Shown piece after piece: positions 1-53,849 of a stretch of DNA of 64,000 nt. The notes below the pieces were generated by a model, which did no database searches, was not told where the DNA came from, and saw only the letters and a list, made by a program, of their open reading frames with translations. This DNA is from Amoebophrya sp. A120. Taxonomy: Eukaryota > Protista > Dinoflagellata. Made by a program: the position numbers and the translations under genes. Each line of letters starts with the position of its first letter. Positions within the stretch are counted from its first letter, which is position 1. The stretch lies in contig CAJINV010000021.1 in the NCBI GenBank assembly GCA_905178155.1, forward strand, positions 850,449-914,448, read 5' to 3'.

Positions 1-1830
1 TACCATGCACATTCCGATTTTTCCGGAAAATCGGAATGTGCTTCCCCTGCGTCTAGTGGCTGTAGCCAAAAGAGGTCCTCTTTTGGCCCTTTCTGTCCAC
101 CATACCATGCACATTCCGATTTTCAGTAGAAATCGGAATGTGCCCGCGCGGCAGTGGCCGGGATCCCACCGGAGACGCCCCAAGATGGCTGCTCGATCGA
201 AAGCCCACCTCGTGGCCGCCAGCCAAAAATGGTCGGTTTTGGTCAGCTTGTCTCCACCATACCATGCACATTCCGATTTTTCCAGAAAATCGGAGTGTGC
301 TTCCCCTGCGTCTAGTGGCTGTAGCCAAAAGAGGTCCCGTTTTGGCCGATTTCTGTCCACCATACCATGGACATTCCGATTTTCAGTAGAGATCGGAATG
401 TGCCCGCGCGGCAGTCGCCGGGATCCCACCTGAGGGGCCCCGGGATGGCCGCTCGAAAGCGCACCGTGTGGCCGATAGCCAAAAATGTCTGGTTTTGGTC
501 AGTTTGTATCTACCATAACATGCACATTCCGATTTTTCCGGAAAATCGGAATGTGCTTCCCCTGCCCTTCGCGGCCGTAGCCAAAAAAGGTCGTGCTTTG
601 GCCGATTTGTGTCCACCATACCAGGCACATTCCGATTTTTCCAGAAAATCGGAATGTGCTTCCCCTGCCCGTCGCGGCCGCAGCCAAAAAATGGCCCATT
701 TTGGCCGATTTCTGTCCACCATACCATGCACATTCCGATTTTCAGTAGAAATCGGAATGTGCCTGCGCGGCAGTCGCCGGGATCCCACCGGAGAGGCCCG
801 AGATGGCCGCTCGAAAGCCCACCTCGTGGCCGCCAGCCAAAAATGGTCGGTTTTGGTCAGCTTGTCTCCACCATACCATGCACATTCCGATTTCTCCAGA
901 AAATCGGAATGTGCTTCCCCTGCCCCTCGAGGCCGTAGCCAAAAAAGGTCCTGTTTTGGCCGATTTGCGTCCCGCATACCATGCACACTCCGACTTCCAG
1001 TAAAAATCGGAATACGCCCAGGCAGCAGTCGCCGCAATACCACCGGAGAGGCCCCGCGGAGATGGCCGCTCGAAGGCCAACCTGGTGGCCGCCAGCCAAA
1101 AATGTTCGGTTTTGGTGAGTTTCCATCTACCATACCATGCACATTCCGATTTTTCCTGAAAATCGGAATGTGCTTCTCCTGCCCGTCGCGGCCGCAGCCA
1201 AAAAAAGGCCCATTTTGGCCGATTTCTGTCCACCATACCATGCACCTTCCGATTTTCAGTAGAAATCGGAATGTGCCCGCGCGGCAGTCGCCGGGATCCC
1301 ACCGGAATGGCCCCAAGATGGTCGCTCGAAAGCCCACCTTCTGGCCGCTAGCCAAAAATGTCCGGTTTTGGTCAGTTTCCATCCACCATACCATGCACAT
1401 TCCGATTTTTCCAGGAAATCGGAATGTGCTTCCCCTGCGTCTAGTGGCTGTAGCCAAAAAAGGTCCTGTTTTGGCCCACTTCTGTCGACCATACCATGCA
1501 CATCCCGATTTTCAGGAGAAATCGGAACTCGCGCCTCCGGCGCCGTCGGGCAGCCGCAGGAGACATGTTTAAAATTATGTCCCGTTAAAGCGCAGCTTCC
1601 GGCTTCTACCCAAAAGTGCTCGTTTTTTCTCAATCTTCATCCACCATAGCGTGCACATTCCGATTTTCCCGGAAAATCGGAATGTGCCTCGCCTGCACGT
1701 CACAGCCACCGCGGCCCAAAAAACTTCTGTTTTGGCCCATTTTTGTTCACCGTACCGTGCACATTCCGATTTTCAGCAAAAATCGAAATGTGCCCGTCCG
1801 GCTTCCGCCGGACGATGGCCGCTCGAACCA
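1..1830. repeat. Hairpin-rich tandem satellite (~257-bp unit made of alternating ~102 and ~155-bp subunits)
   Basis: About 15 copies of the palindrome GCACATTCCGATTTT-N5-AAAATCGGAATGTGC (first at 7-41) with conserved alternating linkers; runs off the left edge. Confidence 0.9.
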
Positions 1831-9304: not shown

Positions 9305-9925
9305 CGTCCTGTTGTCCGTATCCGTAGTTTTCTACTAGGGTACTAGCATCGGTTTGTTGTGCTGCAGCGCGACCCAGGACACCGCGGCACCACTCGGTCC
9401 CCTGCCAACAAGCTAGGAATAGACACGCTTTTGGTTGTCCAATGATTCTTTTTCGAGGCCGCGCCATCTTCAGCAATCGACACTGACTCAAACGAGATAG
9501 GAGATCAATTATCGGCGAGGCGATCTTGAAACTGGTTTGCTTTCAATACGATAGCCCCAGGTTCTTGCTCTAAAAAAACTAGAAGCGTTTGATCTTGAAG
9601 GATGTTGAAAATGTTCACACACAACTGACACACACGACACGACATCCAGCAGCTGCTAGTACCTCACTAAACATGCCCATGATTGCCGAATCCTCCCACT
9701 ACGATCGATTCACGCTTTGTCATCTTCACTCTTCCCGAACGACCCTTATCCTCCTACAAGGCACTGCGTTTCATACTGCGAACGTATTGTCGAACTTGTG
9801 AAATAGATCGCTCCCGAGCATTCATCATTGAGAAATACACTGTGTAACCACGGTCCACCCCAATGCCAATGGCGTCGCCCTCTCCACGGTGAAGATCGAC
9901 GGCGACCAACGGCAATATCCCACAC

Positions 9926-10430
9926 AATCCGCGAAAATTGAAAATTTTATCTTTATTCTTGACACGACGAGGAAACAACAGAAGCTTCTGCTTGTGTAGG
10001 CTTCTATCCTAATAAACCAATTACTTAGCGCGAGATAACAACAATCCTGGGAAATCCGCGAAATTTAAAAATTTTATTTTCATTACTAAGCCAAATTCGC
10101 GAAATTTGGAAATTTTATTTTTATCAGACGACAGATGAAAAATAGTTTGCATCTTCCAAACCAAAGCGGAGCTGTAGGAGCTGTACTGTACCGCGCACCT
10201 GTGGCTCATAGAAAAGTCAAGTTGTAATAACCGTTAGCAAAAACGACCTATCGACCAAGTGAGGACTTATCATCTTACCAATTCACCTTAAATCCGCGAA
10301 TTTTCAAAATTTTATTTTTATTAGACGAACTACGACAACGACAGGCAATTTCATCGAAATTCCGCTAATTTTTAAAATTTTATTTTCATCAGAACACAAA
10401 ATCCGCGGAATTTCAAAATTTCATTTTTAT
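9926..10430. repeat. Six dispersed copies of a ~32-nt AT-rich motif
   Basis: AAATCCGCGAAATTT.AAAATTTTATTTT.AT at about 9926, 10052, 10093, 10289, 10357 and 10398. Confidence 0.8.
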
Positions 10431-10668: not shown

Positions 10669-13600
10669 TCACTCGTTGCTTCCGACCCACTGAACCTGCC
10701 CCTCGGTGGAGCTCCACAACAGGCGTGCCTGCGTGGCGAACGCGTGGTCGTCACAAACGCCAAACATGTTTCCTACGTTCGCAAACCCAGCGGCGTTCAT
10801 TCCGAGCTGCGTTCGAAAGATCCTTTCCAGGAGCCACGCAGGACCCTCGGCACTGCTGATATGACCACCAATGGAGATGATCGAAGATCCGTCCGTCGCA
10901 GACGAACGAACAGTTTCATTTTCGTCTTCCGACATCCACGTCAAAACCGGCGGGAGCGCGAAGCACGACAGGCTCTTTTCGCGCACAATGGTCGCGTTCT
11001 CGTACCACGCACTCGGCCCCAGCGTGCGGTGCAGAAACGTGTTCGCGTGTCTCGGGCAGGGCAGCGTCAACGGACCCAGCGCGCAGTCGGCCAGCGGAAA
11101 GACGCGACTTTCGAGCGCAGCTGCGCTTGACAGGCGAATCACGTCAAGCTCGAAGCGGACGGAGCAGAGGTCGGCGATTCGGGTTTGGTTCGTGTGACAG
11201 AAAAATCCGTGGTGGATGTATCCCTGGAGAAAACCGCAGATCGGAAACTCCCACGCCTGTGCGACCTGGGCAACTCTTTCGATATGCAAGTGCACAAAAA
11301 TTGGAACCCCTCGTCCCCCTCATTGAGAAGGCACATAAATTGCATGTGCATCGGATACGATATAGTTAGCACCATTCTATTATTGCAGCCCATCTAGCCG
11401 TGTAGAAGCAGATAAGCATAAGATGAAATACCTACTGTTTGCATGACAAAAAACGGGAGATGAGTACCAAAGTCCACCAGGCCTGGAGAACTTGTCCCGT
11501 ACCAAGGCCGCGCTTCTGCCATTGAGATTGACTTTGTCGATGTTGCTAATGCTATGCATGACGCCTGTAAGAAATGCAAATGGGCGGGAGACGAGGGAGA
11601 GAGGAGGAGGTGCGTACAACTCTCATACTCGACAACCAGGGACCATAACTGGTCAGAATTATCAAGATTTTCACTGATGTCTCTATCGGCTTTTCGGTCG
11701 GTTACGGTTTCGGTTTCGTTTGTTTTTTCCACTTGTGAAGATGATGCACTGGCACTCGTACTCCGGTCGTGGTTAAGTACAACAGCAACGTCGAAATCGT
11801 GAATTCCCTGTATGGTGCTCCGGCCTCGCGAAAACACTTGCTTCGAATTGTCGTTCGGTATGTCGTACACAACAACTCGTGGAGGGTCAACGTCAACATC
11901 AGAGGTTCGGTGTTTATTCCTGGCTGTTTCAGTTTGTACTGCATGATCGAATTCTATGGGGGGACAAAAAAACTAAAGGAACCGAGAAGGGCACTTTTTT
12001 CGGGGCCACATATTTGGGCACTTTTTTTGCATTGCGGTTGGGCAGTCCGTCGCGGGCGCCAAAACAAAGGACATGTCCCGGCATTTCAGGCCGTTTTCGG
12101 GTGCCGCTTTCATCTCGAAACCTGTCAAAGGCGCCACGGCATTACGCCTGCAATAGAGTGCCCACAGGCATGGGGGGCTTCGACGTGGGCGAACCTACCT
12201 AAGGAGACAAGATGGCCGCTACGCTGCCCTGAATGACAACCCACCCGTGCGGCCGCCCTGCTGATCCGTCGGCAGCGAAAGTTTTGGCCCCCTTTTTTAT
12301 TCACCTGAAAATGTCTAAAGCGAAAAAAGATATACGACTTCGCAGGCATCACGGGGAGCTTGATAGAGTAGACCCGCGAAGGCCTTGCCTGAGAAAGTAG
12401 CTCACTCGGACGGGAGCAAGACCAATGGCGCGCGAGTCGTGTTGCGCTTTGGTTCGAAAATCCGGCTGCTCCTGGCAAAAAAGCGAATGGGCCGAGCGAC
12501 GGAGCCGTGGCTGGCGCGCTCCAAAAAAGCGCCGCGGCTAGCTATACAAGCGCGATCTTCCCAAGCCAGCCTGGACTCGCCGACCTTCCCAGCCGAGGCC
12601 GGCACCGAATGTGGGGAGGGATGAAAAACAGGAGCGCCACAGTGTCCTTTTAGTGAATATGCCGGGGGGTATGGCAAATATGTGGGGCTATACCACCCCA
12701 CATATTCGCAATCAGGGCGGCATACTGAATATTTGGGGTGGAGGGGGCCCGCATAGTCACTAAAAGGACTAAAAGGAGAGCAGCGCCGGCGCCAGCAACC
12801 GACGCGAGACGGAGACGAAGCCGACCTGTGGACGGGCCTCACAAAGCCCGAAGGCTTTTCAACAAGGCGACAACGCCGCCGCTGGTATGCTACGTGCGGC
12901 GAGCTGCGCGACGGATCAAAAACCACCCGCAGGGTAGGGACTGTATGCCCACGGGCAACGAAGACAGGTCGCGCGGCCGCCCTCCTTTTTGCCCCCGGCC
13001 AAGCCGACACACACGCGGAGCCCTTTTGGTTTTCGTGCGGGCGCCCCAAGCCGTAGCCGCCACGCCGGAATCGCCCCAAGGGCTAGAGCCGCCGGGATGG
13101 CACTCGGCTGTGGTTGAAGGTCACTCCGGGGAAATTGAAGAAAATCCCGCAGCGCCATGCTAGGCGCTCAATGCTTTGCACGTGCAAGGAGGGCAAACGC
13201 AAATCGAAAAGGTCGGCTTCACAGGAGGACGCCGCCGGCGCCAATATTTGTAGCGAGTCTGTTTAACAAGCCCCGTTACTTACTACATTAGTGGCGCCCG
13301 GCATCAGCCGAAACATACAGAGCCAGAAGCGCTGTGGGTGCATTTCTCATGGAGACACATGCCCTTTCCAACGAAAAGCGGCAACATGTTGCGCGCTACC
13401 TGAAGAGCAGCAACATGTTGTGTAATTCGCGAAACCTAAAATCCCCCCGAATATGTGGGCCCTGAAAAAAGGCCGCTCTCGGTTCCGCGGCGCTAGTTTG
13501 TCCCCCCATATCGAATTCTGCTTCTTTTTGTTCATCTTTTCCTCCTGGAAGCTCGAATTTCTGCATCCAGTCCCCGTACCGCAAGCTGCTCAACAGCGTA

Positions 13601-15866
13601 CCTATCCCCTGAAAATTAACCATCCCCATCCAATTTGTGATGCAAAGCATGTACGTAAGTTCTGTGTTTGTCATGCAATTGCAAAAAGTGGATGAGGATG
13701 GTCAATTTTCAGGGGATAATGCCACCGCGAATCGTCCAAGCCGTGATCATATCCTGTGCAAAAGCATCGCATTCGTATTGCAGTCATGCATTTACAAATC
13801 TTTTTTTTAAGTGGACAAATTTTATCTCTCGTGCTGAGGAAATTTGTAATGCACCATTTATACGAGTACGATACTTTTGCAGTTCATAGATCAGCTTCTC
13901 TTCGTTCTGCAAGTGGTCAAACAGCCGCTGCGCGTTCGCCGCAAACTCGATGACCTTCTGTCGGTTTGCCGCGAGAAAAGCGTCCACCCTCTCGACCGCC
14001 TTCGCTGGTCCGTGCTCTGCGGCAATTCTTTTCCACAGCTTCGGCAGGGAATGCGAACAAGAAGCATCGTTGCCGTCAGTATCCTGTCCTGGTACAACTT
14101 GTTCCGTCAAAGTACCAGACTTGTCTGCTTCACCCCGTCCTGTCTGACCGTCAACACCACTGCTATCATCCGTATGTCCAAGGAAATGTTTGGCAAACAG
14201 GGTCTGCTGCGACCTATAGGGTGTGGTAACAGCTTCGTGGTATTTGTGCAAGAGGACTGCGAAGGGCGTAATTTTGTCCACTTCCTGTCCAAACCAAAGG
14301 CTACTATGGGATGAAATCTGTGATGCTAATTCCCTGTCGTCGTATAGTTTTACGTGCGTGGACTTCGACGTCTCCGTTGTATCTTTGTGTCGCGAAGCTG
14401 AAAAGCCTCCAGCAACTATCGGTGTCGTCCTTCCGTCTGTCCTCTTAGGTGGCAGCTCTGCGTGTTCTGTTTCCAAATCTGGAGCTGGAGGTGGAAAGAG
14501 AACGTTGAGAAATTTCTGCTGCAAAAAAACCGCCCGCTGCTCTGCACTTTCGAAGTAGACATCATGTTGAATTTGAGTACTTCTATCCTCTTCTCTTTGT
14601 TTGCTGCCATCTCCTTCCGTTGTCGGCCCTCCCGCATCTTTTGCTCCTGCTCCTTGATGATCTGTGCTGGTCTCCGGATTAATTGTGCTACGATCATTGT
14701 AGTTCAACACTTGATTGCCGCGGTGCTCAAAGATCCTGAGCAAAGATAACGATGACCTCCAAGGTCCGCGTCTATTTGCCGCTCCACCCTCCTCGCCACT
14801 TCCTGCCACAACTGGCCGCGCAATTTCCCTCCAGGAGTCGACGTCCCCGCATCACGAGAAAAAAGTGTTACAGTTACACATTTGTTGGAGTTTCTGCATC
14901 ACAAATTTTCTCTGTGTGACAGAAAAAACTTGTAATGCGAAGATCATATATAAGGGAAAACCAAAACAAGAAGGAAACCCGGTTTCTAAGCATTTCCTGC
15001 ATGAGAAAGGTTGTCTGTATTGCCGGTCTTGCAACACAATGTGTAACTGTAACACTTTTTTCTTGCGGTACCCCTCCACCATAATTCACCGCTTCTGTGA
15101 TCTCCGCGTCGAGCTGGTGCGCTATGGCGTTCTCAAACGTTACATTCTCAACTGCTGCATAATTTGTCATGCAAAATGACCATGAGCCGCAAGACGACCA
15201 AGCTGCTTCGCATGACAAATTATCGAAGGGCTAGACAGCATCTAAATCCGTGCCAAATTTGTGATGCAGGACTTGCAAGCTTTCCCCTTTCCCTATTGCT
15301 GCTTTTGCATGACAAACGCATGTAACAGTTGAGAACGTAACAGTTGAGAACGCCATATGCGCAAAAAGATTCCGCAACTGGGTGTGACACTGCAACAGCG
15401 CCCGTAGATTGGTTTCTGCCGCCGCAAAACCCTCGACGTCGGTCGCGAGTTTGTAGGTGTCCCGCACGTGGGTCACAAACGTGTCGAAAAGAACCACGTA
15501 GGAAAGCAGCAAGACCACTACCGGGCAGGAACTGAACAGGTGAGCGGCCAGCTTGATATTTTTCGCTAGGCTTTCGTCATCGTCTGTTCTTGCAGTTCGC
15601 CGTGGTGTTCCCTCGCGTGCTGCGTTTTCCTCGTTTATTTCCACTGCAGCAGCCGCAGCAGCTTTTACACTTAAGTTTTTTGCGCCATCCGTTGCCGCCG
15701 CACCAGCTCTTGTGTATTGAAGATTGGTCGTTGTACTATCTATACTCAATTCCAAATATCCTGAAAATCTTGCAAGTCCTCGCTGTCCCATCATGCTGAT
15801 GAGCACATAATCCATCACAACCACAAGAAGATAGAAGCAATGTACTGTTGTACGCAGCCAGGGCAT
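10669..15866 (-). CDS. LicD/fukutin-family nucleotidyltransferase-like membrane protein; 7 exons, 6 introners
   Basis: Spliced product contains AWTIRGGMLLSSLRYG..IHDFDVAV..FELDV..VFPLADCALGPLTLPCPRHANTFLHRTLG..W, resembling the LicD GTLLGAVRH/DxD and C-terminal motifs; N-terminal hydrophobic segments; all six junctions are in frame. Confidence 0.75.
11283..11627. mobile_element. Introner family L (degenerate)
   Basis: TATGCAAGTGCACAA..CCCCTCGTCCCCCTCAT ... CAACTCTCATA; flanks TTCGA/CTCGA; removal gives VVE|RVAQ. Confidence 0.75.
11955..13510. mobile_element. Large (1556-bp) non-autonomous TIR element with 8-bp TSD inserted in a coding exon (hAT-like TSD length)
   Basis: TATGGGGGGACAAA...TTTGTCCCCCCATA, ~65-nt imperfect TIRs, perfect duplication TCGAATTC at 11947-11954 and 13511-13518; no transposase ORF recognised. 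Confidence 0.9.
13603..13718. mobile_element. Introner family K (TIR TATCCCCTGAAAATT.ACCATCC.CATCCA)
   Basis: Near-perfect ~30-nt TIR; decayed flanks GTACC/ATGCC. Confidence 0.85.
13750..13888. mobile_element. Introner family A
   Basis: Family A TIR; perfect duplication GATCA. Confidence 0.9.
14850..15070. mobile_element. Introner family I-like (TIR ..AGAAAAAAGTGTTACAGTTACACATT)
   Basis: Strong TIR with mutated ends CAT...GTA; flanks CCCCG/CCCCT. Confidence 0.85.
15123..15357. mobile_element. Introner family E (TIR TATGGCGTTCTCAA..GTTAC.TTCTCAACTG)
   Basis: Perfect duplication TGCGC. Confidence 0.9.
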
Positions 15867-15936
15867 CGCCGCGAACGCGGACAGCTACAAACATATGAAA
15901 GAACTCAAGATGAAGTTGTAAAAAAAATAAAGTACT

Positions 15937-16812
15937 TCAAAATCCTATACCATCCACGGCTCCAGGATTTTTGCTTCGTCCGTCACCGTCTCCATCACGA
16001 AATAAATCCTGGTCCTGATCGTACGCACTTCCGTCGTAGGGCCGCGAGCGGTGCCTACTCGTTCCATGTTCTCCTAAACTTCTTGAAGTCAATGTCAACC
16101 CCCACTCCTGCTCGGTCGAAGCCGAAGGGAAAACGGCTTTCGCTATTCGGAGCAGCGTTTGATATGACTGGTCCCGAACCAGCTGTGAGGAGAGCATTCT
16201 CGCGTGTCCCACTGTTCCTATTTCTTCATACAGCTTTTTACCTTCATTTTCATCTCCGTCTCCCCCAGCCGGAGGTGGTGAAAGTGCCTCGCGCAACAAA
16301 GAGCTCCATGACAGGTGCTGAAACCGTGCCAGCACGTCTCCGATCGTAAAAGACTTGGCCCCTTCCGCTTCGCCGGCCCCTTCTTCTCGTCCAGCCCTGT
16401 CCTCTGGCACATCAATCGTTCCACGAGATGAAGAAGTCGCGCACTGCAACACCGGCGCAGGTAGCACCCCAGGCTGTCGAATCGTGCTCTCGAGTCGTTC
16501 GCCTTCCAAAATTTGGTTGTAGGCGCTAGCAAAGCAAGTGTCAGCGGTTGAAGATGCCTCTGCTTCAGCAATATCGCCGTCTCTACTCCGCAGCATCCAC
16601 GGGCAGGCACTGAAACGGTACGGTGCACAGACGCGCCCACCACGCTTTGCTTCCGTTATTGTTTCATCTACATCCTCCTTCTCTTGAGCGCAAACGCCTT
16701 GCGGACCCCAGCAAAGCGAAAGCAACGCGAAAAAAGACAAATTGAAGAAACAGTGAGGCATCCTTTCAAGTTGCATGCATATTCTTTTAAATCTAATCTT
16801 CTTATTCTTCAT
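15937..16812 (-). CDS. Hypothetical secreted protein
   Basis: 291-aa ORF with signal-like MPHCFFNLSFFALLSLCWGPQGVCA and several Cys; start codon uncertain. Confidence 0.55.
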   Translation of the reverse strand: MKNKKIRFKRICMQLERMPHCFFNLSFFALLSLCWGPQGVCAQEKEDVDETITEAKRGGRVCAPYRFSACPWMLRSRDGDIAEAEASSTADTCFASAYNQILEGERLESTIRQPGVLPAPVLQCATSSSRGTIDVPEDRAGREEGAGEAEGAKSFTIGDVLARFQHLSWSSLLREALSPPPAGGDGDENEGKKLYEEIGTVGHARMLSSQLVRDQSYQTLLRIAKAVFPSASTEQEWGLTLTSRSLGEHGTSRHRSRPYDGSAYDQDQDLFRDGDGDGRSKNPGAVDGIGF

Positions 16813-23536: not shown

Positions 23537-23654
23537 CGGCAGAAGATTTGATTTATCAATTTCTTGATCTTCGATGCGGCTGCCTTTTTGTGATAAATCT
23601 CTACCATGACTAGTTATAAGTCAGAAAACCCATTATTTAATAGTATCCCGCAAT

Positions 23655-23875
23655 AAAAACAAACAATAGAAACGAAAAACAAAAACAAAGAATGAAAACG
23701 AAAAACGAAAACAAAGAATGGAAACAAAGAATGGAAACGAAAAACGAAAACAAAGGATGGAAACGAAAAACGAAAACAAAGAATAGAAACGAAAAACGAA
23801 AACAAAGAATGAAAACAAAGAATGAAAAAAAAAAACAAAAACAAAGAATAGAAACGAAAAACAACAACAACGAAA
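23655..23875. repeat. A-rich simple repeat (GAAACGAAAAAC/AAAGAAT)
   Basis: Direct reading of reiterated GAAAAC-type units. Confidence 0.9.
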
Positions 23876-23899
23876 TGCAGACAAAGTGCCCAAGCTTCT

Positions 23900-24630
23900 A
23901 AGCGGCGAAGCCTCGAAACGATGAGGCCTCGAAACGCCGAAGGAAGCGGCGAAGCCGCGAAGCCTCGAAGCAGCGAAGCCTCGAAGCAGCGAAACCTCGA
24001 AGCAGCGAAGCTTCGAAGCGGCGAAGCCTCGAAGCAGCAAAGCCGCGAAGCATGCAGCGCAGCCCCGAAGCAGCGCAGCCCCGAAGCAGCGAAGCCCCGA
24101 AGCAGCGAAGCCTCGAAGCAGCGAAGCCTCGAAGGAAGCAGCGAAGCCTCGAAGCAGCGAAGCCCCGAAGCAGCGAAGCCTCGAAACAGGGAAGCCTCGA
24201 CGAAGCAGCGAAGCCTCGATGAAGCAGCGAAGCCTCGATGAAGCAGCGAAGCCTCGAAGCAGCGAAGCCTCGAACAAGCAGCGAAGCCTCGAACAAGCAG
24301 CGAAGCCTCGAACAAGCAGCGAATCCTCGAACAAGCGGCGAAGCCTCGAACAAGCGGCGAAGCCTCGATGCCCCGAAGCCCCGAAGCAGCAAAGCCTCGA
24401 AGCAGCGAACCCTCGAAGCAGCGAACCCTCGAAGCAGCGAAGCAGCGAAGCCCCGAAGCGGCGAAGCCCCGAAGCGGCGAAGCCTCGAAGCGGCGTAGCC
24501 TCGAAGCGGCCGGCGAAGCCTCGAAGCAGCGAAGCCTCGAAGCAGCGAAACCTCGAAGCAGCGAAGCCTCGAAGCAGCGAAGCCTCGAAGCAGCGAAGCC
24601 CCGAAGCAACGAAGCCCCGAAGCCTCGAGG
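23900..24630. repeat. Minisatellite (CGAAGCAGCGAAGCCT)n
   Basis: Dozens of 16-20-nt variants in tandem. Confidence 0.95.
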
Positions 24631-24669
24631 CGGGGCAACAACGTGCGAAACGAAACTAACCTCGAAACA

Positions 24670-27045
24670 CGAGCCGGCGCCAGGTCGTGGCCAGAGGAAG
24701 CCTGCCAAGCCGGTGCCAGATCATGCATGGCCAAGCCTGCCAGCCGGTGCCACATCATGGCCAAGCCGATGCCAGATCATGGGGTAGCCGGTGCCAGGTG
24801 GGTCGTGGCCAAGCCGGTGCCAGGTCATGGCCAAGCCGGTGCCAGATCATGGCCAAGCCGGTGCCAGATCATGGCCAAGCCGGTGCCAGATCATGGCCAA
24901 AACCTGCCAAGCCGGTGCCAGGTCATGGCCAAGCCGGTGCCAGATCATGGCCAAGCCGGTGCCAGATCATGGCCAAAACCTGCCAAGCCGATGCCAGGTC
25001 ATAGCCAAGCCGGTGCCAGATCATGGCCAAGCCGGTGCCAGGTCGTGGCCAAGCCGGTGCCAGATCATGGCCAAAGCCTGCCAAGCCTGTGCCAAATCAT
25101 GGCCAAGCCTGCCGGTGCCAGATTATGGCCAAGCCTGCCAGCCGGTGCCGGGTCGTGCCCAAGCCGATGCCAGATGCTGGCCAAGCCGGTGCCAGGGCAG
25201 GCCGTGCCAAGGCTGGCGCCAGATCATGGCCAGAGCCTGCCAAGCCGGTGCGAGATCATGGCCAAGCCTGCCAGCCGGCCGGTTCCGGATCATGGCCAAG
25301 CCGCCCGGTGCCAGGTCGTGGCCAAGCCGGTGCCAGACTGTGGCCAAGCCGGTGCCAGATCATTGCCAAGCCTGCCGGTGCCCGGTCGTGGCCAAGCCCG
25401 CCGCCCGGTGCCAGATCATGGCCAAAGCCTGCAAAGCCCGCCGGCGCCAGATCATGGCCATGCCGGTGCCAAATCATGGCCGAGGCGGTGCCAGGTCGTG
25501 GCCAGGCGAAGCCGGTGCCAGGTCGCGGCCAAGCCGGTGCCAGATCATGGCCAAAGCCTGCCAAGCCGATGCCAGGTCATGGCCGGGCCGGTGCCAGATC
25601 ATAACCAAGCCGGTGCCAGGTCGTGGCCAAGCCGATGCCAGATCATGGCCAAAACCTGCCAAGCCGGTGCGTGCCACATGCATCATGGCCAAACCGGTGC
25701 CAGATCAGCGCAATGCCTGCCGGTTCCAGATCATGGCCAAAGCCTGCCAAGATGGTGCCAGATCATGGCCAAGCCGGTGCCAGATCATGGCCACGCCGCT
25801 TCCAGATCATGGCCACCCCGCCCGGTGCCAGATCATGGCCCAGCCGGCGCCAGATCGTGGCAAAGCCTGCCGGTGCCAGGTCGTGGCCAAGCCGGTGCCA
25901 GATCATGGCCAAAGCCTGCCAACTCGGTGCCAGGCCGTGGCCAAGCCGGTGCCAGATCATGACCAAAGCCTGTCGGGCCGGTGCCAGATCATGGCCAAAC
26001 CTGCCAGCGCTCGGTCGCATGCCAGATCATGGCCAAGCCTGCAAGCCAGCCGGTGCCAGGTCATGGCCAAGCCGGTGCCAGATCATGGCCAAGCCGGTGC
26101 CGGATCGTGGCCAAGCCGGTGCCAGGTCGTGGCCAGGCCGGCGCCAGAGAGATCATGGCCAAGCCCGCGCCTGATGAGATCAGGGCCAAGCCGGTGCCAG
26201 ATCATGGCCAAGCCGGTTCCAGGTCGTGGCCCAACCCGCCCTGTGCCACATCATGGCCAACCCGGCGCCAGATCATGGCCAAGCCGTCCGGTGCCAGGTC
26301 GCGGCCAGGCCGGCGCCACATCATGGCCAAGCCGGTGCCAGATGGATCACGGCCAAGCCGGTGCCAGGAAGGTCACGGCCAAGCCGGTGCCAGATCATGG
26401 CCAGGCCCGTGCCAGGTCATGGCCAGGCCGGTGCCACACCATGGCCAAGCCGGTGCCAGGTCGTGGCCAGGCCGGTCGCTTCCAGATCACGGCAAGGCCG
26501 GCGCTCGCTCAGGCCATGGCCCAGCCGGTTCCAGGTCATGGCAAAGCCGGGCCGGCTCCGGGTCGTAGCCGAGCCGAAGCCGGCGCCAAATCATGGCAAA
26601 GCCGGGGCCAGGTCATCTCATGACAAAGCCAAGCCGGTGCCAGATCATGCCCAAGCCGGTGCCAGGTCGTGGCCAAACCGGTGCCAGATGAATCATGGCC
26701 AAGCCTGCCTGCCTGTTCCAGAGAGAGCATAGCCAAACCGGTGAGGGATCATGGCCATGCCTGCAAGTGCCAGGCCGCGGCCAAGCCGGTGCCAAATCAT
26801 GGCCACGGCGGTGCCAGGTCGTGGCCACGCCGGTGCAAGGTCATGGCCGTGCCGGTGCCCGATCATGCCCAAGCCGGTGCCGGACCCTGGCCACGCCGGC
26901 CGCTGTCGGGCCCTGGCCAAGCCGGTGCCCGACCATGCCCGCCCCCCGCCGCCAGATCGCGGCCACGCCGGTGCCAGCGTGCAAGATGACGGCAAAGGCC
27001 AACCTGCCCGCCGCGCCGGCCGGTGCCGGATCGTGCCGAAGCCGT
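24670..27045. repeat. Minisatellite (GCCAAGCCGGTGCCAGATCATG)n, 22-mer
   Basis: About 2.4 kb of 22-mer variants, degenerating towards the right. Confidence 0.95.
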
Positions 27046-50965: not shown

Positions 50966-53849
50966 TTACGCTATATTCCCAACCATCCCGCCGTAGCGTT
51001 CCTTGCAGAATTTCCCGCCGTCCTCTAACGCTTGCGCGCAGAAGGGGTGCCGCTGCACTTCTTCCAGTTGAATCCGCTCCGTCGGTTTTTTCCGCAGCAT
51101 TTTCGTAATCAAGTCCTTGCTATAGATTGCAAAAGTACCGTACAACTCGCTGCAGTTGCAGTAGTTGCAACTTGAACTTCCAGTGCATGACAGATCTAGT
51201 AAACTAGTATTTTACCTGGCTTAGCATTACAAACTGAAACTCCGACGGTTCATCTTGGAATAAAGTTTGTATTCCAATTTGTACTTTCTAGTACGGTAAC
51301 CTTGCATTGCATACTTGCAGTCGGGCGAGAGGTGGTCGGGGAAATAGGGTTTTTCCACCCGAATCTTCTTGTAAGTCGTCATGGTGTCGCCGCCTTCGAA
51401 GGGCGCGCGGCCGATATCCCCAGAAAAATAAACCCATCTTCCTCTTCCATTCTTTGCATGAGAAACACGCGACAATTGAAATTGATGCATGTTTTAGTAC
51501 AACATCACAAATTGGATGGGGATCAATCATGGGTCTACTTTTTTTGTGGATCATAGCCGACCACAAACTCGTACAACAGCACCCCTAATCCCCACACGTC
51601 CGCCATGGTACTCTTCGCCAGTTGCGCCGCGGGCATGTTCGGCTCGACCACTTCTGGCGCGAGGTAATCGAGCGTCCCGCAGAAGGTCGTGCGCTTCAAC
51701 GAAGGCGCGTGCACCGACCACCCAAAGTCGGCGATCTTCAGGGTGTCGTTGGTGCCCAAGAGAATGTTTTCCGGCTTGATGTCGCGGTGCACGACGTGTT
51801 TCCGGTGCAGGTACCGAAACGCGTCCACCATCTGGGACAGGTACCAAGCGGCCCGGTACTCACTGAAGTAGTGCTTCGCTTTCAGGACGGCGTACCTAAG
51901 GGTATCGTGGAAAAAAAAAAAATGGAATTCACTGCGAGGCTCCTTCCTAGGGATTCAAACTCAACAACATATTCATATTCATTTTCGCGTCTTTGTCTTT
52001 CGACGTGAAGTTTTACTTTCACATGTTGATGATTCATCCACCTTGGACCACAAAAATCACAAAGTAGAAATCCGTATAGAACACTCAGTATCCTTTATCT
52101 ACAGCTCTCCCCCCGGTGCGATTTCGAGCATGAGGTAGATTCGGGTGTCGTCCCAAAAATAGTTGTGCAGACGGAGGATGTTTGGGTGTCGCAGGTGGCA
52201 CTGAATCTCGATTTCGCGGATCAACTGGTGCTCGACGCGGTGTTTCTGCAGCTGCTTCTTGTATCAAAATGAAAAATCCCCCCTCCCCACATCAAAGCGG
52301 AAGTTTGTGATGCTGATTTGTGGCCACACATCCGAGCCGTCTTGCTGGAGAGCACTGCAGGCCCACGCCAAGCGTGAGTAGAGAGGTTTTGGCCTAGGCG
52401 CTTAGCATGATAAACGTCCGCGCTGTAGGCCCAACAGCATGACAAACCGCCTGCATACTGCGGCGCAGCCTGCGGAGTTGCTTTCTTGCAAGACAGGCAC
52501 GATTTGTGACCACAAATCAGCATGACAAATTTCCAAAAGTATACCTTTTCAGTACTATGGGGAGGGGGGATTTTTTCTCTCAATATCTTGCTCAGAATCT
52601 TCAGCGCGAAGACGTAGTCGGAAATTCGGTCCCGCGCGAGGTAGATGTTGCCGAATTTTCCCTTGTATGCACTGCAAAAGCATCGCACTCGTAGTAATCG
52701 AAATTATGCATTGCAGATCTTTTTGTTTTTCTTCTGGCAAATCCGCATCACAAATTCCATTACTTATGCTGAGCAAATTTGTATCGCACCACTTAGTATC
52801 GATACTTTTGCAATGCATACCTTGCCCAAGGGCTTCCCCACGTCCAGGTCCTCGAGGCAGTAGGCCGCGTCCTGGTCCTGCTCGATCCCCTCCTCGATGC
52901 GGTCGATCGGGGTTATGACATAGTCGTCATCCTGGATCAAGCCAACGCTACGGGAGGCGGCAGGCGACGACTGCTTTTTAAAAGTTTTCGTACCCGACCC
53001 AGAGGACGGCGCTGGCTGTCCGCCGGCGCCGGCGGCTGCGTTGCTCGAAGTAGCGGCGGCTGAGGAGCTGCTAGAAGCAGACCCGCCTGATTTGTTCGAA
53101 ACAGAGAGAAGTTTTACTTTGAGTTTGACGTGCATCTCATCCACATACCGCCAATCTAGTCTGTTCCTTCGAGCATGTATACTTTAAAGAGACTGATAGG
53201 ACTGACTATCCCTACAGCTAATTTCGTAGGTCGTGTGGTCAACGACATTCTCACTCGAAACTAGTTATGCAAGGCACTTCTTTCTTTACTACCTGCTCCT
53301 TGGCCAGCGGCCACTGCCGGGAGCGCTCCTTGTTTGCTCCCCGGACCCGTGCCTCCAGCGTTGGCCGTGTTCTTGACCGCACCACCGGGTCCCGCACCAG
53401 TGGCCGCAGCTGCGTTGTGATTCACCGGCTTTGGGTTGCCCGCTAGTCCAGCCTTTTGCCGCTTCGAGCTTGGCGAGTAACTTGGTGCGCCGGGCGCCGG
53501 CTTGGGCAGGCCTTGTTTATACTTGTTGAAAATGCTGCTGATGGGCTGCGGGCCGGCGGAAGTCGCTGTAAGAGTTTATTTGTTGTGCCATGATGTCGTA
53601 ATAGAAATCCATTTTTTTTCCTACTTACTGGGGCGGCGCGATTGATTTTGATTCTTTTCAATAAAAATGTAAAGCAAGACAAGAAGGACAAAAACTTCTA
53701 CCTTGCGCGAGACCACCGAAGAGGCTGCTGCCGCCGCTGGCAGAAGGTGTGGCCTTTGCCGCTACACCGCCTGGCTTGCCGGGTTTGCTCGATGTAGCCC
53801 CGCCGGCTGTACCCCCACCAAAGAGCGACTTGCCGCCAAATTTGTGCAT
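50966..53849 (-). CDS. AURK: Aurora-family Ser/Thr kinase; 4 introners plus canonical introns (e.g. 51896-52102); N-terminal exons approximate
   Basis: Spliced: GKPLGK|[18 protein letters not shown]|[78 protein letters not shown]|RAPFE..PDCK|DLITKML..HPF. Confidence 0.95.
51121..51313. mobile_element. Introner family A
   Basis: Perfect duplication CTTGC; interrupts the kinase C-lobe. Confidence 0.9.
51415..51555. mobile_element. Introner family J-like
   Basis: Perfect duplication GCCGA; removal gives VVG|RAPF. Confidence 0.9.
52262..52585. mobile_element. Introner family C
   Basis: Perfect duplication TCTTG; removal gives LSK|KQL. Confidence 0.93.
52666..52819. mobile_element. Introner family A
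   Basis: Perfect duplication CCTTG; splits the GxGxFG loop. Confidence 0.93.

What the first reader, a model, noticed from the sequence alone, without database searches (positions are those of the whole stretch)
11947..13518. 1.56-kb TIR element with an 8-bp TSD that appears to behave as an intron in the LicD-like gene
Seen: this element is 4-14 times longer than the other introners. It has the same TAT...ATA ends but ~65-nt TIRs and a perfect 8-bp duplication (TCGAATTC), and I did not see the GCAT[GCT]ACAAA motif inside it. Removing it plus one TSD fuses ..KEAEFD|HAVQTET.. in frame between the GGMLL..RYG and DxD motifs. Established: 8-bp TSDs typify hAT (also Merlin and P) transposons. Inference: either a second transposon lineage exploits the same TAT/ATA-dependent splicing, or this is a fresh gene-disrupting insertion. 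It is a possible link between ordinary DNA transposons and introners.
Basis: partly seen in the sequence, partly recalled or inferred. Interest (0 to 1): 0.8.

Follow-up and report, generated by a model that had tools for sequence, protein, structure and literature searches.

The report
Transposon intron that adds one codon
In the marine parasite Amoebophrya A120, a 1.56-kb transposon-like insert is missing from two likely-RNA assemblies together with 5 flanking bases instead of the 8 it duplicated, so the protein gains one valine and stays in frame, which likely means the unexplained splicing route counts from the insert's ends and ignores the repeat.

Summary
Confirmed: a 1556-nt TAT…ATA element (11955-13510) with 14-nt perfect, ~64-nt imperfect inverted ends and an exact 8-nt duplication, in an Amoebrophya-type gene named by its record as Amoebophrya sp. 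A120. It is an intron, but not cut as proposed. Two likely-RNA contig sets of one sample skip 11951-13511 (1561 nt = element + 5; 1 base before TAT, 4 after ATA), with no sliding room; a DNA-like run does not. Three duplicated bases stay and add Val776, as the public protein already shows. The 10-nt repeat that reverse-transcriptase slippage or an empty allele would use is ignored, as is a nearby AG. The scan had already noted the 1+4 cut on other DNA of this genome for 5-bp elements; new here is a clean test of it and the 8−5=3 frame rule. The element is non-coding, has a few related copies and its own motif and central hairpin. hAT membership is unproven (TATGG, not YARNG; other copies' duplications unseen). 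8-bp-duplication introners are published, including one A120 family. LicD-likeness is a lead only.

The parts
11947..11954 (.). Left copy of the 8-nt target-site duplication (TCGAATTC); 4 bases stay in the exon (11947-11950), 4 go with the intron
11955..13510 (.). 1556-nt non-coding TIR element, TAT…ATA, 58% GC
11955..12018 (.). Left terminal inverted repeat (14-nt perfect core, ~64 nt imperfect)
13446..13510 (.). Right terminal inverted repeat; shared with other copies in a DNA-like run
13511..13518 (.). Right copy of the duplication; 7 bases stay in the upstream exon, 1 (13511) is the intron's first base
11951..13511 (-). Intron as actually removed: 1561 nt, AT…AT ends, element + 1 nt (5') + 4 nt (3'), no sliding possible
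12644..12769 (.). Near-central hairpin (centre 26 nt from the element's midpoint) holding three exact copies of the sub-terminal motif AATATKYGG; kept in diverged copies
12006..12014 (-). Left sub-terminal copy of AATATGTGG
13450..13458 (+). Right sub-terminal copy of AATATGTGG
13512..13598 (-). Exon upstream of the element (…LLSSLRYGDW…KEAEF)
11629..11950 (-). Exon downstream of the element (…DHAVQ…HDFD…)
10669..16812 (-). Host gene, 1085 aa, unnamed product of Amoebophrya sp. A120 (P0001, CAD7972940.1); LicD-like motifs as a lead
13603..13718 (-). Neighbouring 116-nt TAT…ATA introner with a decayed duplication; RNA skip 121 = element + 5, two possible placements, one being 1+4
13750..13888 (-). 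Neighbouring 139-nt introner, exact 5-nt duplication; RNA skip 144 (slides by 5, uninformative for register)
15123..15357 (-). Neighbouring 235-nt introner, exact 5-nt duplication; RNA skip 240 (slides by 5)

Best explanation
A non-coding transposon-like element with an 8-base target duplication sits in a coding exon and is missing from likely-RNA contigs with exactly 5 flanking bases, likely because the host's non-canonical splicing route cuts at fixed distances from the TAT…ATA ends, leaving 3 duplicated bases that add one valine in frame. Shown: anatomy; the 1561-nt joint (1 base before TAT, 4 after ATA); Val776; the same element+5 length at three neighbouring introners; other copies. Inferred: (i) the joint is made by splicing, probably a relaxed spliceosome brought to both ends by the terminal hairpin (intron starts N-U-A-U, as GUAU would); (ii) it was inserted by a cut-and-paste transposase supplied in trans with an 8-base staggered cut, more likely than not a different one from that of the 5-bp introners, binding the element's own AATATKYGG motif; hAT-type is the first guess (about 0.4); (iii) it is tolerated because 8−5=3 keeps the frame and the site lies in a low-complexity loop between conserved motifs; duplications of 4, 6, 7, 9 or 10 would frameshift under the same ruler.
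For: Joint 11950|13512, skip 1561, 0 letters of slide, in X3 (depth 9.7, 30 letters on the short side, contig lengths add up with nothing between) and X4 (depth 7.82, 85 letters). The DNA-like run X1 has no such joint and reads 11780-12083 unbroken. The X3 contigs also lack four other introns of the gene. The spliced chain is open to the gene's stop and matches P0001 at the junction; only one placement gives the annotated peptide. 4 of 4 TIR-element joints in this gene equal element + 5 (121, 144, 240, 1561). The empty-site or slippage product (1564, 10 letters of slide) and an in-frame AG 3 nt inside the 3' end (1558) are not seen. Distinct from small introners: 58% vs 43% GC, lacks their motif, 8/8 match at 8 nt and 0/5 at 5 nt, while 22 of 30 small ones match exactly at 5 and 0 of 30 at 6-10. 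5 of 5 window matches to AATATKYGG are inside it; central hairpin z = -7.3. Other copies: three diverged contigs at depth 41-43, two near-identical ones at 76-87 against 43-44 in unique flanks, three contigs leaving at 13510.
Against: Both RNA sets are contigs, guessed to be RNA, from one sample code; raw-read runs X9-X11 laid 0 reads (no test); independence from the public annotation cannot be assumed. X3 also holds an 80-nt contig reading from exon into the element (depth 7 against 9.7 joined), so removal may be incomplete or DNA may be present; X4 shows none. Only one 8-nt site is seen; the other copies' flanks came only as a mixed consensus. The ends share TAT and the A-run at positions 12-14 with the 5-bp introners (TAT by construction of the list), which fits common descent as well as a common splicing filter. 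No Pfam hit in 6 of 6 frames. The motif pattern was drawn from the element itself, so its chance figure is optimistic. A published A120 family is noted as '8-9bp TSD'; 9 would break the frame rule. The spliceosome's role is untested.
Confidence: 0.75

Rival explanations
1. Spliced as described, but the element belongs to the ordinary TAT…ATA 5-bp lineage and the 8-nt duplication is a one-off aberrant insertion or repair product that survived because it is in frame.
For: Same TAT start and A-run at 12-14 as small introners and as the published A120 consensus; only one site's duplication is known; an unchecked scan note reports much longer duplications in this genome (e1-10627074) and a 3.1-kb 5-bp element (e1-10589660).
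Against: Different GC, no shared internal motif, own sub-terminal motif and hairpin, no significant BLASTN match to any other element in the window; 0 of 30 small elements show a 6-10-nt duplication.
Confidence: 0.3
2. The joint is a reverse-transcriptase template-switch artefact across a hairpin, and the gene is really disrupted.
For: Strong terminal hairpin and direct repeats are the known recipe for such artefacts (PMC4176328 passages); an unspliced end is present in X3; only cDNA-type data seen.
Against: The joint has no microhomology and ignores the 10-nt repeat 3 nt away; it is the same in two libraries, in frame, and has the same element+5 length as three neighbours.
Confidence: 0.04
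3. The RNA sample carries a DNA allele from which the element has excised, leaving a 3-nt footprint.
For: Cut-and-paste excision leaves footprints (own knowledge); RNA and DNA-like runs are different sample codes.
Against: No such joint in X1; X3 holds the exon-element junction with 0 differences; the footprint equals exactly the introner register.
Confidence: 0.03
4. The element ends ATG…CAT with a 10-nt duplication (Mutator-like), its TAT/ATA being partly target-derived, so only this copy can be spliced.
For: The direct repeat is 10 nt; TIRs are long and imperfect; a Mutator-assigned A120 introner family with 8-9-nt duplication and GG/CC termini is listed.
Against: Three other DNA contigs match through 13510 before diverging, about 1 in 64 by chance if the last A were target DNA.
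Confidence: 0.07

Closest known systems
Introner elements / non-canonical introns of Amoebophrya sp. A120 (Farhat et al. 2021, PMC7789003; abstract, passages, sections 10, 11, 16, supplement legends seen)
   Same: Same organism; inverted ends starting TAT followed by an A-run; direct repeat at the borders; non-GT-AG ends; no transposase inside; the intron is in the public gene model.
   Different: 1561 nt, outside the 40-1000-nt window they analysed; 8-nt rather than 3-5-nt repeat in the main text (Fig. S21 covers 3-8 nt, image not visible); removal does not restore the target but adds a codon; no fixed offset is stated in what I read (Fig. S23 legend: 1-5 nt from splice sites).
A120 introner families of Gozashti et al. 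2025 (PMC12130899; section 6, passages, all 58 A120 rows of Dataset S2 seen), notably fam65 (627 nt, '8-9bp TSD', assigned Mutator)
   Same: TIR DNA element acting as intron; long duplication; fam65, fam26, fam71 and fam99 (4 of 58) have GT/AT starts in 94-100% and no AG/AC ends, the pattern of this AT…AT intron.
   Different: Length and noted termini (GG/CC) differ; none of the 58 rows is finally classed hAT; no register or added codon is described in the rows; whether this element is in one of their families (fam25 1474 nt, fam86 1619 nt) could not be checked without sequences.
Aureococcus sp. and Polarella glacialis 8-bp-duplication introners (PMC9860276 Fig. 2F-G legend; bioRxiv 10.1101/2020.10.14.339549; passages seen)
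   Same: 8-nt duplication; in Aureococcus sp. the insertion adds whole codons (12 nt, 4 residues).
   Different: Those carry or co-opt GY/GA and AG splice sites; here neither end is canonical, an available AG is passed over, and the net gain is 3 nt set by distance from the element ends.
Non-autonomous hAT elements (PMC3517528, PMC3014272 passages seen)
   Same: 8-nt duplication, short perfect TIR core, sub-terminal repeats, non-coding interior, A at position 2 and G at position 5.
   Different: TATGG instead of YARNG; imperfect TIR extends to ~64 nt; target is not nnnTAnnn; no transposase link shown.

Membership tests
Amoebophrya A120 introner elements | Removed from RNA with non-GT-AG borders | tested here: met
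   AT…AT joint, no slide, X3 and X4; contigs guessed to be RNA, one sample
Amoebophrya A120 introner elements | Terminal inverted repeat starting TAT with downstream A-run | tested here: met
   TAT-GGGGGGAC-AAA at both ends (consensus)
Amoebophrya A120 introner elements | Repeated in the genome | tested here: met
   Several distinct contigs on interior and right end in X1; number rough, a few copies
Amoebophrya A120 introner elements | Direct repeat of 3-5 nt (main text) | tested here: not met
   8/8 at 8 nt, 0/5 at 5 nt; hence a variant, not the typical class
Amoebophrya A120 introner elements | Other copies also sit in exons as introns | not testable with these tools
hAT superfamily | 8-bp target-site duplication | tested here: met
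   One site only; other copies not readable
hAT superfamily | Terminal motif YARNG | tested here: not met
   TATGG, position 3 is T; a hAT introner with TA/TA termini is listed, so TA itself is compatible
hAT superfamily | Short TIR (5-27 bp) | tested here: inconclusive
   14-nt perfect core within a ~64-nt imperfect repeat
hAT superfamily | hAT transposase, own or of a parent sharing the ends | tested here: inconclusive
   0 Pfam hits in 6 frames with stops as X; parent search needs the genome
hAT Buster family | Target consensus nnnTAnnn | tested here: not met
   Positions 4-5 are AA / TT; single site
Mutator/MULE, P, Merlin | Own termini (recalled: G-start long TIRs, CAT, GG) and transposase homology | tested here: inconclusive
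   Only the 10-nt reading gives ATG…CAT ends, disfavoured; no coding homology; termini recalled except fam65 note
LicD nucleotidyltransferases (host gene) | PF04991 profile match | tested here: not met
   No hit for P0001, its exons or A25 homologues
LicD nucleotidyltransferases (host gene) | G-G-T/S-L-L…R-x-G, DxD and C-terminal motifs; fold | tested here: inconclusive
   GGTLLSSLRYGDW conserved in A25; atlas LicD rows 0.90-0.92 with 154-163 of 256 features, below the 170 typical of members; model pLDDT 31; motif likeness recalled

The most novel reading that the evidence does not exclude
The A120 splicing route is a fixed 5-base ruler that acts as a genome-wide gate: any cut-and-paste lineage with TA(T) ends becomes an intron former if its duplication length is 2, 5, 8 or 11. 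A separate hAT-type lineage with a central hub hairpin has passed that gate and inserts one new residue into proteins at each exonic landing, making it the bridge between A120's large autonomous 8-bp transposons and its introners.
Probability: 0.3. Interest if true: 0.72.

Novelty: new variant of a known kind. Interest (0 to 1): 0.52.

Why it matters
How Amoebophrya removes tens of thousands of introns without GT-AG is open (PMC7789003). For 5-bp elements, removal of element + 5 nt cannot be told from slippage or recombination at the repeat. This element separates the two: a longer repeat is on offer and is not used, so the cut is set by the element ends. That argues against a cDNA artefact, gives a diagnostic junction (EF-V-DH) for direct RNA or peptide tests, and yields a countable prediction on which duplication lengths can survive in exons. 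It is one locus, already in the public gene model, and codon-adding 8-bp introners are known elsewhere, which limits the score.

Tried and rejected
No whole genome is held, so no genome-wide TIR search. Raw RNA runs X9-X11 laid 0 reads: no test. No listed holder is on record as RNA. TIR patterns found nothing in metagenome contigs or viral contigs. No Rfam match, no Pfam match in the element, no PDB sequence match for the host, single-sequence fold of the last exon unusable, no shorter homologues. The A25 homologues are split models, one ending a few residues before the insertion site, so the ancestral residue could not be read. RNA contigs over the interior differ from the window and are taken as other copies; uncovered parts are no evidence. 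Joint 15221-15305 (23 letters, inside a high-copy element) and X1's internal joints were left out of the element+5 count as products of other copies. Differences of other copies in the hairpin are not clearly compensatory (1 of 7 would restore a pair, 3 of 7 break one). Automated duplication lengths in Dataset S2 (2-6, 11) were not used as a test because the window shows 5 for such elements. Rejected: element + full duplication as the intron; use of the internal AG; gene disruption. Huff et al. 2016 was not held. Supplement file 3 proved to be Dataset S10.

Full report
Observation. The element spans 11955-13510 (1556 nt), starts TAT, ends ATA, and is flanked by TCGAATTC on both sides. The ends are perfectly inverted over 14 nt and 79% over about 64 nt. 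The repeat at the borders is really 10 nt long, because the element's own terminal T and A match the flanks. A window-wide scan for 6-12-nt repeats around 12-nt inverted ends gave 33 rows; this element gave three of them (6, 8, 10 nt) and is the only exact 8-nt row, most others coming from satellites or cross-pairs of repeats. For comparison I listed 30 small TAT…ATA elements (114-368 nt); one search filtered partly on duplication, so the list leans to good 5-nt matches. 22 of 30 have an exact 5-nt duplication, 0 of 30 an exact one of 6-10 nt.

Identity. The last exon finds one protein among 1849 candidates, an unnamed 1085-aa product of Amoebophrya sp. A120, 100% identical (CAD7972940.1). It maps to eight exons on the minus strand, 16812-10672. 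Farhat et al. (PMC7789003, sections 10, 11, 16 and passages) describe A120 introner elements with TAT-starting inverted repeats, 3-5-nt direct repeats and unknown splicing, analysing introns of 40-1000 nt only.

Is it an intron? Of 11 listed runs, six were laid. X9-X11 laid 0 reads (no test). X3 (contigs, RNA by guess) has a 937-nt contig made of 14683-13889, 13744-13720, 13598-13512 and 30 letters ending at 11950; the pieces add to 937, so nothing lies between. X4 has one contig joining 13512 to 11950 directly, 85 letters on the short side. X3 and X4 share a sample code. X1, whose contigs run through the introns, shows no such joint. The skip is 11951-13511, 1561 nt, with no sliding. On the transcript strand the intron is one base of the upstream duplication, the element, and four bases of the downstream one; it begins ATATGG and ends ATAGAAT. 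Eleven of the sixteen duplicated bases remain, three more than the empty site, giving KEAEF-V-DHAVQ, exactly as in the annotated protein. Retention would stop translation 38 codons into the element. An 80-nt X3 contig reads from exon into the element at depth 7 against 9.7 for the joined path, so removal may be partial there; X4 shows no such piece.

What the cut follows. All 4 TIR-element joints in this gene equal element + 5 (121, 144, 240, 1561). Two slide by 5 and one by 1; only the 1561-nt joint fixes the offsets to the base. Template switching is favoured by direct repeats and hairpins (PMC4176328 passages) and would, like an empty allele, give 1564 nt; an AG three bases inside the 3' end would give an in-frame 1558. 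Neither appears, though contigs drop rare forms. I infer that the cut is measured from the ends. I wrote this reading down before seeing the scan's notes, several of which report the same 1+4 offsets from decayed 5-bp duplications elsewhere in this genome; they are unchecked and not independent support. The idea of a relaxed spliceosome is theirs and Farhat's as much as mine and is untested. None of the notes shown describes an 8-nt case. Under a 5-nt ruler only duplications of 2, 5, 8 or 11 keep the frame (arithmetic).

What kind of element. It has no Pfam match in six frames and no Rfam match. It differs from the small introners in GC (58% vs 43%) and lacks their internal motif. All 5 window matches to AATATKYGG, a pattern drawn from the element itself, lie inside it: one 50-60 nt from each end and three in a hairpin at 12644-12769 that folds with z = -7.3 and is centred 26 nt from the midpoint. 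In X1, unique flanks have depth 43-44; three diverged contigs (41-43 each) and two near-identical ones (76, 87) lie on the interior, two of the diverged ones resume matching at the hairpin, and three contigs leave exactly behind 13510. Depth is no copy number, but this indicates a small family and supports ATA as the true end. Their flanks came only as a mixed consensus, so their duplication length is unknown. The ends share the A-run at positions 12-14 with small introners, which fits either common descent or a common splicing filter. hAT elements have 8-bp duplications, 5-27-bp TIRs and YARNG termini; TATGG fails position 3, so I do not file it as hAT, though it may work like one. Unchecked notes report large hAT-like elements in this genome, one with a centred palindrome; no sequence link was found.

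Host gene. Pfam finds no LicD. The atlas ranks LicD clusters first at 0.90-0.92 with fewer shared features than typical members. The GGxLLSSLRYGDW and CALGPL…P…WY stretches are conserved in two adjacent A25 models. The insertion lies in a poorly conserved stretch between the RYG and HDFD motifs, where one more residue is probably harmless (inference).

Prior knowledge. Gozashti et al. 2025 (section 6; all 58 A120 rows of Dataset S2) attribute A120 introners to diverse TIR elements and list fam65 with an 8-9-bp duplication. Four of 58 families have GT/AT starts and no AG/AC ends, the pattern expected where a junction cannot slide; two have noted duplications of 8-9 and 11 (my inference; sequences not seen; 9 would contradict the rule). 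8-bp introners adding four residues are described in Aureococcus sp. and 8-nt classes in Polarella. I found no statement of the 1+4 offsets or the one-codon footprint in searches or the passages read; Farhat's Figs S19-S23 are images I could not see (legends only) and may bear on this, and Huff et al. 2016 was not held. PMC11282704 was seen as passages.

Verdict. A real, spliced, long introner variant with an 8-nt duplication that adds one codon; a clean natural test of an end-anchored cut; lineage unresolved. New variant of a known kind, interest 0.52.

Noticed in passing
Other copy of the element, seen in runs X1, X3, X4 at window 12054 and 13424-13512: A near-identical copy has a different sequence upstream of 12054; in X4 one contig runs right end, 73 other letters, then 12054 onward (tandem, nested or circular form). 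It is covered in both likely-RNA sets. The foreign letters include GTGACCACAAA, also found in a small introner at 52506-52516.
   Followed up: partly
window 14846-15071: A 226-nt annotated intron of the same gene is a TIR element whose ends have drifted to TAC…ATG on the transcript strand; the 1+4 placement fits the annotated peptide, keeping U+2, A+3 and A-7 (annotation only).
   Followed up: partly
window 11279-11628 and 15707-15951: Two GT-starting introns of the host gene without obvious TAT…ATA ends (350 nt, seen in X3; 244 nt, annotation only); the first can slide by 4.
   Followed up: partly
window 23652-26977: Three adjacent satellites (A-rich 26/65-nt, 8/16-nt, and GC-rich 22-nt units) forming a 3.3-kb block; long repeat-made ORFs only.
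   Followed up: no
window 4-1796: Tandem array (periods about 103, 256, 358 nt) built round a 35-38-nt palindrome.
   Followed up: no
window 9920-10430: About six intergenic copies of a semi-palindromic CCGCGAAATTT…AAAATTTT motif downstream of the host gene.
   Followed up: no
P0002, P0003 (Amoebophrya sp. A25): The A25 homologue is split into two adjacent gene models, one marked partial, breaking just after the conserved RYGDW motif; a mis-modelled intron is possible.
   Followed up: no
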